A DNA stretch of 63,894 bases, filler included, from Licmophora abbreviata (lineage: Eukaryota), in NCBI GenBank assembly GCA_900291995.1. It is 14 parts of 14 records of this genome, joined end to end, with 100 filler letters (N's around TTAATTAATTAA, not from the genome) between each part and the next. Parts side by side here need not be neighbours in the genome. Positions count along the whole stretch, not along the records: positions 42,544 to 43,606 come from OLMU01000951.1; 13 more parts are not named here. The stretch is one strand, 5' to 3'. The position numbers and the translations under genes were made by a program. The notes under the pieces were generated by a model. That model saw nothing but the letters and a program-made list of their open reading frames with translations, was not told the origin of the DNA and did no database searches. Position 1 is the stretch's first letter. The number at the start of each line of letters is the position of its first letter. Positions 24,882-48,382 of this stretch are shown one piece after another.

Positions 24882-26957
24882 ATGTCTACATCAACCGCGA
24901 CAGGAAAGGCGAAGCCAACGGCGTCCTGGATCGAGATTCCGTCCGATTCAGACTTCTCACTGCGCAATATTCCCTTTGGCGTCTTTTCCTGCCCTCCTGA
25001 AAAGCCCAGGCCTCGCTGTTGCACCGCCATTGGACACATCGTCGTGGATCTTTCCATTTTGGCCGAAGCAGGATTGTTCGACCGTTGTACTAGCAGCTCT
25101 GAGTTTGCTCCTCATGTCTTTTATGAGTCAACATTGAATAAGTTTCTAGCGTACGAGCGTCCAATTTGGGAGTCGGTACGAAACAAGCTTATTGATCTCT
25201 TTGCCACCGACGGAGACGACGACGCACTTCGTATCAACGAGCCACTACAGAAAGCGAGTCTCCACAACCTGGAACTTGTCACGCTACACTTGCCCGTAAA
25301 AATCGGTGACTATACAGACTTTTACTCGTCGCGTGAGCATGCGACCAATGTTGGAACAATGTTTCGTGGAAAAGTCAATGCCTTGCAACCTAATTGGCTT
25401 CACTTGCCCGTAGGATACCATGGTCGGTCCTCGACTGTATTTGCATCTGGAACTCCCGTGCGCCGTCCCTGTGGACAACTACAGAAAGACCCGAACGACC
25501 CGACACAGGGCAGCACTTTTGGGCCGTGTCGACTCATGGACTTTGAATTGGAAATGGCGTTCTTCGTCGGCGGAGCTCCCAACCAGCCTGGACAACGGCT
25601 TGACATTTCGCGTGCATACAATCGCATCTTCGGCTTTTGTTTGACGAATGATTGGTCTGCGCGTGACATTCAAAAGTGGGAATATGTGCCCCTCGGACCA
25701 TTCACTGCCAAAAACTTTGCCACAAGTGTGTCACCCTGGATTGTTACCACCATGGCACTCGAAGAGTTTCGATGCGACACATCGGCGCTCTGTCAGAGCG
25801 ATCCGACGCCTCTACCGTATTTGCAAGATGCCAACTACAGCTCGTTCAACGTCGTGTTGGAAGTGCAAATCCAAGATGAGTCGATGAAGAAGCCAGCTAC
25901 CGTGTGTCGCTCCAACCTGCGAAACATGTACTGGGACGCAGCTCAGCAGTTGGTCCATCACTCTGTGACGGGATGTATTATGGAAGCAGGTGACATGTTG
26001 GCGTCAGGCACCATTAGTGGTTCGTCGGAAACATCGTTTGGTAGCATGCTGGAATTGTGCTGGAAAGGAACGAGAGAAGTCCCGTTGGGGTCTACGGGTA
26101 AAGTACGAAAGTTCCTGCAAGACGGCGACACCGTTCTTATGAAGGGATGGAGCGAAACGAAAGGCCGCGCCCGTGTCGGTTTCGGTGTTTGCGCTGGCAA
26201 GATCCTACCAGCCTTGCTCCCCGGTGATAACAAAGGTCCGATGAACCTGCCAACGTCAGTTGCCTGTCGCTATAAGGACTTCAAGTTGTATGCGTTTTGG
26301 AGATCGTCTTCGTCGTGGCGAGTCAGGATTGCTTTGCACGCCAAGTCGATCGACTATCAAGTAATTTCGGTCAACCTAAAGGAAGACGAGCATGCATCTG
26401 CCGATCATATCGAGCGTAATCCCATGGCGCAGGTCCCAGTCCTTGAGTTTACGGATACAATGATGAATCGCCAGGTGCGCTTGTCGCAGTCGGTAGCTAT
26501 CATTGACTTTTTGGAAGAAACTTTTCCGACTCGTCGACCTCTTATGCCCATGGATGCTCTCGATCGAGCTAGGGCGCGTGAAATGGTGGAAGTCGTCAAT
26601 TCCGGAACACAACCGCTGCAAAATGCGTTCCTTGCCCGCAAGGTAGAGAAGCTTTCTGAAGGAAAGATTGTAGGCAAGGAGTTTGCTGCCCAGGCGATTG
26701 AACGGGGATTCCGCGCATTGGAGCGTATGGTTTTGTCGCGTCGATTGCAAGAGGGTGCGCGTGGGCCTTTTTGCTTAGGAACGTTTTGGCCCTCGATTGT
26801 AGATGTATACATGGTACCTCAAATGTACAACGCGCGACTCTTTGGGGTTGACGTTGGCCAGGTGTGTCCGTCTCTTGTCGCCATCGATGCTCGGTGTGTC
26901 CACCACCCTTGGTTCATGCCAGCGCACGCAGACCTACAACCGGATGCAAAAACGTAG
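24882..26957 (+). CDS. FAH: Fumarylacetoacetase fused to zeta-class GST (maleylacetoacetate isomerase)
   Basis: FAH: GDYTDFYSSREHATNVG, LPVGYHGRSS, DFELE, NDWSARDIQKWEYVPLGPF, SGTISG. GSTZ: LYAFWRSSSSWRVRIAL, NPMAQVPVL, SQSVAII, SGTQPLQN, AHADLQPD. Single intronless ORF. Confidence 0.93.
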   Translation: MSTSTATGKAKPTASWIEIPSDSDFSLRNIPFGVFSCPPEKPRPRCCTAIGHIVVDLSILAEAGLFDRCTSSSEFAPHVFYESTLNKFLAYERPIWESVRNKLIDLFATDGDDDALRINEPLQKASLHNLELVTLHLPVKIGDYTDFYSSREHATNVGTMFRGKVNALQPNWLHLPVGYHGRSSTVFASGTPVRRPCGQLQKDPNDPTQGSTFGPCRLMDFELEMAFFVGGAPNQPGQRLDISRAYNRIFGFCLTNDWSARDIQKWEYVPLGPFTAKNFATSVSPWIVTTMALEEFRCDTSALCQSDPTPLPYLQDANYSSFNVVLEVQIQDESMKKPATVCRSNLRNMYWDAAQQLVHHSVTGCIMEAGDMLASGTISGSSETSFGSMLELCWKGTREVPLGSTGKVRKFLQDGDTVLMKGWSETKGRARVGFGVCAGKILPALLPGDNKGPMNLPTSVACRYKDFKLYAFWRSSSSWRVRIALHAKSIDYQVISVNLKEDEHASADHIERNPMAQVPVLEFTDTMMNRQVRLSQSVAIIDFLEETFPTRRPLMPMDALDRARAREMVEVVNSGTQPLQNAFLARKVEKLSEGKIVGKEFAAQAIERGFRALERMVLSRRLQEGARGPFCLGTFWPSIVDVYMVPQMYNARLFGVDVGQVCPSLVAIDARCVHHPWFMPAHADLQPDAKT

Positions 26958-41964: not shown

Positions 41965-42544
41965 GACGTTGGTTCTCAGATCGACAGAACCCAGGTCTGT
42001 TGTGGAACGGGGACACTGGATTGATTCATCAGATGCTTGTTCGTTACCACTCATGATTCATGGTCGACAAACCAATGAAGGCACGCGAGCCGGCACCCGA
42101 ATAGATTGGGAAGATACGATATTTGCCACCGGACTGCACAGAACCTTAAGAAGTCATTGTAGGGCAATCATGCCATTAAACCACGGTACTGTAAAAGTTC
42201 GGACGGTCCATGTAGTTCGAATCCTCAACATGCCGATGCGTTGGCGTCCAAGGCGGCTCAACTCGTCCACGACCTCTGCAGAGGAGTCGGAGAACCATTA
42301 CGCTTTCCAAGTGGCAAAATATAGAGACAAAGTTGGGAGCGACACTCTAGCTAGGGCGAACCTTCAAACGTTAGAATATCATTTGCTGGAACATGTGTAG
42401 TACGATTTAGTAACCTAGTGACGAAGTAAGTCTGGGTGCTCTTNNNNNNNNNNNNNNNNNNNNNNNNNNNNNNNNNNNNNNNNNNNNTTAATTAATTAAN
42501 NNNNNNNNNNNNNNNNNNNNNNNNNNNNNNNNNNNNNNNNNNNT

Positions 42545-42629
42545 TGGTGGGCGCGCGACGCGGCAAAAGTGTGTACGTTTGAACGACGTATTTTTCACTA
42601 GAATTTGCTAGCGATTCAGATATCTTATA
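42545..42629. repeat. Small dispersed repeat, copy 1 (interrupted by mariner); inverted relative to copy 2
   Basis: Reverse complement aligns to 48288-48382 with a few substitutions and one short indel. Confidence 0.85.
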
Positions 42630-43454
42630 CTCCCTCCGTTCGGAAATAAGTGTAACATTGGCGAGTTCGTGCACCTCAAGCTGGCATTTGTACAATGACC
42701 GAGTACGTTACCCCTTCTTATATAAAATAAAGGTGATATACGTATAGAACTAATCCAGAATTTTCAGGTCAGGAGAAGTTAATGGCATGTAAAAGGCGGG
42801 AAAAATTGGCTGTGTTTTGCGAAGCACAAACTCTTTTGCTTGGCCACCACAAAACGACAAAAAACATGCCCGACCCTCCCTTCAACAAGAAAAAGAAACC
42901 AAATCAGACTCAAGAAGAGAGGAAGAAGCTTTGTACCTTCTTCTCTCTCCACATCATTCAGGGGTCTGATCCGCTCGAATTGAGGCGTGGGGCATGCGTT
43001 GCGGCAGCTAAAAAATTCAATCTTTCTCGCGCGCAAATAAGCAGGATTTGGGAAAAAACGCGGGAAAACTTTGAGGTCAATCAGAAACTCTCCGCGACGC
43101 CAAAGAAAAAGAAAGGTCGTCCAAGGAAGTTTGATCCTGATGAGATGCGATCTTCTATTAGGGAGCTCTCGCACCAGGACAAGAAGTCCTTGAGAAGCAT
43201 TGCCTCCAAGCTGGGAATTTGCGTCTCCACCCTGTGGAGCTATAAAAATCGAGGTGACGACGACGACGATCCCATTATTCGCTCGAACCGAAATGCTGTG
43301 AAACCCAAGCTCACTCCTGAGCACGAAGTAGCCAGAGTATTTTATTGCAGAAGTAAGTTAGATATGGACTCTCTTTCCTACGATGACTTTCTCCAATCTG
43401 TACATGTGGACGAGAAATGGTTCTTTCTTACCGAAGCGGAGCAGAGGCTATGGC
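42630..43454 (+). mobile_element. Tc1/mariner element of the plant-mariner (Stowaway-related, DD39D-type) group, 3' truncated
   Basis: TA target at 42628-42629, then TIR CTCCCTCCGTTCGGAAATAAGTG (Stowaway/Osmar-type CTCCCTCCGT terminus); transposase ORF downstream; no right TIR. Confidence 0.9.
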
Positions 43455-43534
43455 TTAGGGGTAGGGTTAGGGTTAGGGTTAGGGTTAGGGTTAGGGTTCG
43501 GGTTTTAACGGGAGACGGGATCAAGACGGGTTAG
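42782..43534 (+). pseudogene. Truncated mariner transposase running into telomeric repeats
   Basis: HTH AAAKKFNLSRAQISRIW; GRPRK linker; second HTH SLRSIASKLGICVSTLW; NAVKPKLTPEHEVARVFYC; first catalytic Asp in VHVDEKWFFLT; then (RV)n encoded by TTAGGG. Confidence 0.88.
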
Positions 43535-43606
43535 GGTTAGGGTTAGGGTTAGGGTTAGGGTTAGGGTTAGGGTTAGGGTTAGGGTTAGGGTTAGGGTTAG
43601 GGTTAG
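43455..43606 (+). repeat. Telomeric (TTAGGG)n array with one GTAGGG variant and a 34-bp non-canonical block at 43497-43530
   Basis: About 7 units, then the insert, then 12+ perfect units to the contig end, G-rich strand pointing toward the end. Confidence 0.95.
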
Positions 43607-43738
43607 NNNNNNNNNNNNNNNNNNNNNNNNNNNNNNNNNNNNNNNNNNNNTTAATTAATTAANNNNNNNNNNNNNNNNNNNNNNNNNNNNNNNNNNNNNN
43701 NNNNNNCCACTACGGTTATCACAGAAATGGTGCCTATA

Positions 43739-48287: not shown

Positions 48288-48382
48288 TATCAGATATCTT
48301 AATCGCTAGCAAAAAACAAAAAATGCTAGTGAAAAATACGTATTTCAAACGTACACACCTTTGCTGCGTCGCTCGCCCACCA
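48288..48382. repeat. Small dispersed repeat, copy 2 (no mariner at the corresponding TA)
   Basis: tatcagatatcttaatcgctagcaaa...ctagtgaaaaatacgtatttcaaacgtacacacctttgctgcgtcgctcgcccacca matches the reverse complement of 42545-42629. Confidence 0.85.

What the first reader, a model, noticed from the sequence alone, without database searches (positions are those of the whole stretch)
42630..43606. Telomere array fused directly into the catalytic domain of a mariner transposase
Seen: an intact left TIR and an undisrupted transposase ORF run to ...DEKWFFLTEAEQRLWL, then switch with no subtelomeric buffer (TGGC|TTAGGG) to telomere repeats oriented toward the contig end. The remaining catalytic residues and right TIR are gone. 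Known: telomerase can heal double-strand breaks using minimal seed homology. Inference: a recent chromosome break healed inside a young element. Alternatives are a telomere-capped extrachromosomal fragment, or a recurring process that cuts and caps transposon copies. The truncated product keeps both HTH domains and could act as a dominant-negative TIR binder.
Basis: partly seen in the sequence, partly recalled or inferred. Interest (0 to 1): 0.75.

Follow-up and report, generated by a model that had tools for sequence, protein, structure and literature searches.

The report
Telomere-capped broken transposon in a diatom
A diatom transposon copy is cut off inside its enzyme gene and capped by telomere repeats that carry a short piece of another telomere-linked repeat, most likely an ordinary scar of repeated chromosome-end repair that no sequencing read has yet confirmed.

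Summary
The junction is in the sequence: a TA-flanked DD39D-type (plant-mariner-like) element in a diatom runs without a stop to 15 codons past its first catalytic Asp, then into TTAGGG repeats at the end of a 1,063-bp contig; no C-terminal half was found in the assembly. That piece is the exact start of a repeat ('X') that follows short TTAGGG tracts at three other loci with unrelated flanks. So this was not one fresh telomerase event: the end was extended by, or copied from, an X-bearing end and capped again. The element also sits inside another repeat that lies near telomere tracts elsewhere. Terminal position is unproven: 2 of 5 long contig-end arrays in this assembly point inward, and no laid public contig reaches the junction. 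No relative (0 of 55) is telomere-capped, so a recurring cut-and-cap process is unsupported; a dominant-negative role has no target found. Closest known: MoTeR truncation/relic structures and subtelomeric mosaics. No reverse transcriptase could be tied to X. Modest interest.

The parts
42444..42543 (.). Artificial linker (N44, 12-mer, N44) between records; same at 43607-43706. Not biological.
   Evidence: 13 identical linkers in the window; C951 = 1,063 bp
42545..42627 (+). Repeat Y (host of the insertion); multi-copy, another copy at window 48288-48382 on the minus strand
   Evidence: 11 other contigs match these bases; empty sites in C4336, C3082, C952
42628..42629 (+). TA target dinucleotide, left side
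42630..42865 (+). Left TIR (start CTCCCTCC..., length not definable without the right end; about 30 bp in 7 of 9 complete relatives) and 5' untranslated part
   Evidence: other family ends: C7443 (89-90% over 100-108 bp), C5299 (16/16 at a contig end)
42866..43456 (+). Transposase remnant, Met1-Leu197; first catalytic Asp182 at 43409-43411; frame stays open through the cap to a stop at 43532-43534 (222 aa with an Arg-Val tail)
42911..43252 (+). Two three-helix bundles (residues 16-72 and 91-129), the bipartite HTH DNA-binding part
   Evidence: block pLDDT mostly 85-97; Pfam HTH hits all below curated cut-off
43455..43496 (+). Proximal telomeric tract, 7 hexamers, second one GTAGGG
43497..43530 (+). 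34-bp relic of repeat X, truncated at a GGG
   Evidence: 34/34 to C6468 and C7562, 33/34 to C7463
43531..43606 (+). Distal pure TTAGGG array, 12 units + TTAG, running off the contig

Best explanation
A real scar of repeated end repair in a repeat-rich, telomere-linked region of a diatom chromosome. Step 1 (shown): a DD39D-type mariner inserted at a TA in repeat Y. Step 2 (inferred): the DNA broke or eroded inside the element just after the first catalytic strand, losing about 0.9-1.2 kb of element and everything beyond. Step 3 (inferred): telomeric repeats were joined on a TT seed. Step 4 (structure shown, mechanism inferred): the new tract gained repeat X, which elsewhere follows short TTAGGG tracts; X was cut back to 34 bp at a GGG and capped again. 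Steps 3-4 may be one copying event from another end that already had tract + X piece + array (telomere capture by template switch or break-induced replication; about 55% within this reading), priming of an X RNA on the G-overhang (about 35%), or telomerase read-through (about 10%). The element is dead; the 222-aa product keeps its DNA-binding part but no function is shown.
For: Junction and composite cap in sequence. X start identical at 3 other tracts with 3 unrelated proximal flanks; 4 loci in the assembly in all. Seed: Leu in 27 of 42 relatives, next Arg 0 of 42. Loss size from 9 complete relatives among 55 loci. TERT with Telomerase_RBD E 4e-35. Diatom host: silicon transporters E 2.5e-212; TTAGGG is the repeat of P. 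tricornutum and T. pseudonana (PMC8329260 passage). Y-family sequence lies upstream of tracts in the same orientation in C7481 and C2031, and in C3426 whose end overlaps telomeric C7378 at 97%. Left insertion junction matches a 151-nt public contig with 0 differences.
Against: No read or public contig spans the junction; cover stops at 43057. Of 21 tracts on 19 contigs, 13 are internal, 5 run outward off a contig end and 3 run inward; among arrays over 65 bp, 2 of 5 are inward, so an array at a contig end is not proof of a chromosome end here. Consecutive records are scaffold neighbours in at least three places, so C951 may lie mid-scaffold. Gaps of about 0.5 kb fall in single-copy genes, so a missing half can be a coverage hole. 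Y is dispersed (42 contigs); enrichment at tracts is P=0.004 against all contigs but 0.16 among the short late-numbered contigs, and two of the three links are to the second module of Y, not the part that holds the mariner.
Confidence: 0.52

Rival explanations
1. The junction is real but internal: a former end, or a telomeric insertion at a break, now joined to other DNA (relic internalisation or interstitial telomeric sequence); the contig stops only because short reads cannot cross the array.
For: Inward long arrays at C2542 (single-copy riboflavin synthase stop codon abutting 22 CCCTAA) and C7699; 13 internal tracts; C951 is numbered among scaffold-ordered records. Internal MoTeR relics with tracts on both sides are described (10.1101/845669 passages).
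Against: No contig that starts with an inward array continues the transposase or repeat Y; C952 does not start with telomeric repeats.
Confidence: 0.26
2. Library or assembly chimera: the transposase contig was joined to telomeric sequence through the TTAGGG node or by an amplification artefact.
For: Fragmented assembly (7,734 contigs) with a human-L1-like contaminant contig (label recalled); odd gene-to-array junctions elsewhere; no independent span.
Against: Two ordered junctions within 80 bp, the second at a GGG seed, and a private variant in the proximal tract would all have to be artefact; a minority chimera should leave the true continuation assembled, and none was found.
Confidence: 0.13
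3. X is the 5' part of the telomerase RNA, copied when telomerase runs past its template boundary, so the cap is made by telomerase alone.
For: Polarity fits (X lies 5' of CCCTAA on the C-strand); telomerase-RNA pieces inside interstitial telomeric sequences are known in rodents (PMC2246262 abstract); no diatom telomerase RNA appears in the survey passages seen (PMC8287931, 'diatom' 0 hits).
Against: X runs on for at least 410 bp and is built of modules shared with other repeats; copies differ by 2-3%; none of the 4 loci looks like a template-plus-pseudoknot gene (flanks unrelated); no Rfam match.
Confidence: 0.05
4. One reading: a capped extrachromosomal fragment, or a recurring process that cuts and caps mariner copies.
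For: Only the short contig itself.
Against: The left end runs into flanking repeat Y, not a telomere; 0 of 55 related metagenome loci hold even two telomeric units; the other two family ends in the assembly are not at tracts; tracts here abut many unrelated sequence types.
Confidence: 0.04

Closest known systems
MoTeR truncations and relics, Magnaporthe/Pyricularia (10.1101/845669 and PMC8381367, passages seen)
   Same: Short element terminus attached to a telomeric tract, truncated and capped by de novo repeats from a 1-nt or short seed; some relics have tracts on both sides; mosaics of captured sequence at ends.
   Different: MoTeR1 encodes an RT with REL endonuclease; no RT was tied to X. 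MoTeR's TTCGGG variant run is at its 5' terminus, whereas X's telomere-like run is at the tract-proximal terminus. Host is a diatom.
Endonuclease-deficient Penelope-like elements Athena/Coprina (described in PMC8557442 passages; the 2007 paper was not read, its diatom examples are recalled)
   Same: Element end joined to reverse-complement telomeric repeats in the polarity expected for priming on a G-overhang.
   Different: No PLE-type RT recognised among the RVT_1 hits inspected; no hammerhead match in X contigs.
DD39D plant-mariner-like elements (subgroup definition: PMC4054914 passages)
   Same: TA target, CTCCCTCC-type TIR start, HVDEKWF first catalytic motif, bipartite HTH; 6 of 8 full-length homologues have 39 residues between second and third Asp (counting to the last Asp of SPDxNxxD).
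   Different: This copy lacks the second and third Asp and the right TIR.
Interstitial telomeric sequences made at double-strand breaks (PMC2246262 abstract)
   Same: Telomeric repeats at a break with short homology, sometimes with an extra copied fragment.
   Different: There the flanks resume on the far side; here nothing resumes in the assembly.
Truncated-transposase repressors (P element 66-kDa form; mariner dominant-negative complementation; PMC3687335 passages)
   Same: DNA-binding part kept, catalysis lost.
   Different: No intact partner gene found, no expression evidence.

Membership tests
DD39D mariner-like element | TA target site duplication | tested here: inconclusive
   Left TA and empty site seen; right side lost
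DD39D mariner-like element | Terminal inverted repeats of CTCCCTCC type | tested here: inconclusive
   Left start matches those of 9 complete relatives; no right TIR to pair
DD39D mariner-like element | Transposase homologous to the group, bipartite HTH, first Asp motif | tested here: met
   53% to P0001, E 2e-54; invariant H180 D182 E K W F F in 33 rows; model
DD39D mariner-like element | 39 residues between second and third Asp | not testable with these tools
   Region absent in this copy; 6 of 8 homologues have it
Telomerase-healed chromosome end | G-rich strand 5'->3' toward the end, host repeat | tested here: met
   repeat type per PMC8329260 passage
Telomerase-healed chromosome end | Array is the physical end of the molecule | not testable with these tools
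   No spanning reads; inward arrays exist
Telomerase-healed chromosome end | Short seed homology against the intact allele | tested here: inconclusive
   No intact allele; TT seed inferred from relatives; GGG seed at the second junction shown
Telomerase-healed chromosome end | Host has telomerase | tested here: met
   TERT on C4665
Telomere-targeted retroelement (MoTeR-like or EN- PLE) for X | Same terminus attached to telomeric tracts at several unrelated sites | tested here: met
   4 of 4 X termini in the assembly
Telomere-targeted retroelement (MoTeR-like or EN- PLE) for X | Linked reverse transcriptase sharing the terminus | tested here: inconclusive
   52 RVT_1 matches, contigs of 45 inspected by translation; CRE/REL elements end without X; X contigs are all under 1.1 kb, and PLE RTs can be missed by RVT_1
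Telomere-targeted retroelement (MoTeR-like or EN- PLE) for X | Hammerhead ribozyme near the telomeric stretch (EN- PLE) | tested here: inconclusive
   Rfam E<=1 on 11 loci gave one chance-level miRNA hit; minimal hammerheads can be missed
Dominant-negative truncated transposase | Expressed, binds TIR, active partner present | not testable with these tools
   HTH bundles modelled; no intact partner found; binding and expression untested

The most novel reading that the evidence does not exclude
X is the terminus of an undescribed telomere-primed mobile element of diatoms (non-autonomous, or with its RT unassembled) that extends freshly healed breaks, and this contig is a snapshot of the whole cycle: break in a transposase, telomerase seeding, 34-nt aborted element addition, re-capping, leaving an in-frame HTH protein with an Arg-Val tail.
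Probability: 0.18. Interest if true: 0.62.

Novelty: new member of a known kind. Interest (0 to 1): 0.3.

Why it matters
Diatom chromosome ends are little studied (stated in a PMC8329260 passage). If reads confirm the junction, it gives a base-level example of end healing in a diatom and points to repeat X as a marker of end dynamics, testable with one long-read run. The mariner part alone is a dead copy and of low importance.

Tried and rejected
Public runs: five listed, all at word share 0.05-0.11, four laid; no RNA holder listed; no cover beyond 43057. X motif in JGI metagenomes, IMG/VR and phage records: no match. CRE/REL LINEs as X's partner: similar strand composition but their 3' ends stop just after the ORF without X or telomeric repeats; rejected. 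The LINE whose 3' end lies near the C6658 tract is dispersed over about 11 loci; rejected as telomere-targeted. C7443 and C5299 as the lost right end: flanks do not match repeat Y. One-mismatch TIR search did not exceed its control (12 vs 21). Loose-end motif of a related copy not in the assembly. PDB sequence search with the homologue profile: 0 hits. Foldseek gave only weak rows (SETMAR DNA-binding domain E 0.31, Tc3 E 0.49) and VIA-align Z <= 7.0 to homeodomain-type bundles for residues 6-73 only: consistent with HTH, not diagnostic. Inverted-repeat scan was swamped by linkers. Scaffold boundaries around C951 could not be inferred. A PLE-specific profile search could not be run. Literature: nine searches listed no paper on such a structure in diatoms; the library lacks most subscription papers and supplements were not opened.

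Full report
Setting. The window is a string of records joined by an artificial 100-base linker. The finding fills one record, G000:C951, 1,063 bp, window 42544-43606, of a 29.2-Mb assembly in 7,734 contigs. The host is a diatom: silicon transporters score E 2.5e-212. It has a TERT gene. TTAGGG is the repeat of the two model diatoms (PMC8329260, passages).

The element. TA at 42628-42629 precedes CTCCCTCCGTTCGG. The 85 bases before it belong to a separate repeat, Y, matched on 11 other contigs; three of them give the empty site and show insertion at TA. A 151-nt contig of a public marine run matches this left junction with no difference. The protein has 8 longer homologues, best 53% identity; 6 of the 8 have 39 residues between second and third Asp, the DD39D subgroup (PMC4054914, passages). 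Homologue starts align with ATG 42866. The frame holds Asp182 in HVDEKWFF and reaches Leu197; that codon position is Leu in 27 of 42 distinct relatives and the next is Arg in none, so the break most likely follows the TT that also begins the first repeat. Nine of 55 related metagenome loci are complete elements of 1.70-2.18 kb, which puts the loss at about 0.9-1.2 kb. Two full-length homologues find only C951 in the assembly, apart from one E 0.96 row. Two other family ends exist: C7443 (89-90%) and a 16-nt exact end on C5299. The model has two three-helix bundles at high confidence and an unstructured tail; Pfam HTH hits are under cut-off and fold matches are weak. The frame ends at 43534, giving 222 residues with an Arg-Val tail.

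The cap. It is 7 hexamers with one variant, 34 other bases, and 12+ perfect hexamers. The 34 bases match 34/34 the sequence that follows short tracts in C6468 and C7562 and 33/34 in C7463; there it runs on for 126-410 bp to the contig end, while each locus has a different proximal flank. A wider search finds these 4 loci only. In the window X stops at a GGG and telomeric repeats resume in register. This is the main new observation: the cap has a history of at least two joins, or was copied whole from another end.

What is X? Its polarity fits a telomere-primed element as described for Athena/Coprina (PMC8557442, passages) and its truncated, tract-flanked form fits MoTeR relics (10.1101/845669 and PMC8381367, passages). 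I looked for a partner RT: of 52 RVT_1 matches the contigs of 45 were translated; by motif (labels recalled) they are group II intron, LTR, DIRS-like, RTE-like, CRE/REL and TERT types. The CRE/REL elements share X's strand bias but end just after their stop without X. A LINE 3' end near another tract is dispersed. X is modular and shares parts with other tract-linked contigs, which fits a subtelomeric mosaic spread by DNA recombination at least as well as a retroelement. Telomerase-RNA read-through fits the polarity but not the length or modularity.

Terminal or not? The assembly holds 21 tracts on 19 contigs: 5 outward at an end, 3 inward at an end, 13 internal (one tract came). Two of the five arrays over 65 bp are inward, one abutting the stop codon of the only riboflavin synthase copy. 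Consecutive records are true neighbours in at least three places, so C951 is probably part of a scaffold, at its end or inside; this could not be resolved. None of four laid runs covers the junction. Y-family sequence precedes tracts in the same orientation in C7481, C2031 and C3426/C7378, but Y is on 42 contigs and the enrichment is weak once short contigs are considered.

Verdict. Real break and composite re-capping at an end 0.52; real but internal 0.26; chimera 0.13; telomerase-RNA read-through 0.05; extrachromosomal or recurring mariner capping 0.04 (0 of 55 relatives). The dominant-negative idea has precedent (PMC3687335, passages) but no partner or expression here. An earlier AI note from another diatom describes a buried tract in a subtelomere; it is unchecked and is not support. 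Nine literature searches listed no diatom description of X-like relics; coverage of the library is partial. This is a new example of known end-repair structures; X is the lead worth following.

Noticed in passing
L016 (G000:C2542) 573-1382: The only riboflavin synthase copy in the assembly ends with its stop codon directly on 22 CCCTAA units, an inward-pointing array.
   Followed up: partly
L026 (G000:C7699) 3-507: A frame with tyrosine-recombinase-like motifs (label recalled; no Pfam hit) is cut by an inward array of 16 units.
   Followed up: partly
L030 105-250; also L032, L062-L067: A rod-like hairpin of about 115 nt in at least 8 contigs, upstream in the X module chain; 39 predicted pairs, only 1 compensatory; no Rfam match on the loci scanned.
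   Followed up: partly
L072, L130, L094, L097: A CRE/REL-type LINE family (label from recalled motifs) with a fixed 3' end just after the stop, suggesting a specific target site.
   Followed up: partly
L128, L024, L129, L068: A second module follows tracts at two loci (C6658, C7481) and links to tandem repeats shared with X-related contigs.
   Followed up: partly
L031 and L022: A duplicated kinase-like fragment is bounded by telomeric tracts on two contigs.
   Followed up: no
window 43057: Contigs of two studies leave the element at the same base with the same loose end, suggesting an internally deleted derivative in related populations; that motif is not in this assembly.
   Followed up: partly
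window 24882-26957 (+): One ORF joins fumarylacetoacetase and a GST N-terminal domain, a possible fusion of two tyrosine-catabolism steps.
   Followed up: partly
G000:C845 1790-6079 (-): Three tandem silicon-transporter units in long open frames.
   Followed up: no
L039 (G000:C6884): RT fragment that reads like human L1 ORF2 (recalled), pointing to contamination in the assembly.
   Followed up: no
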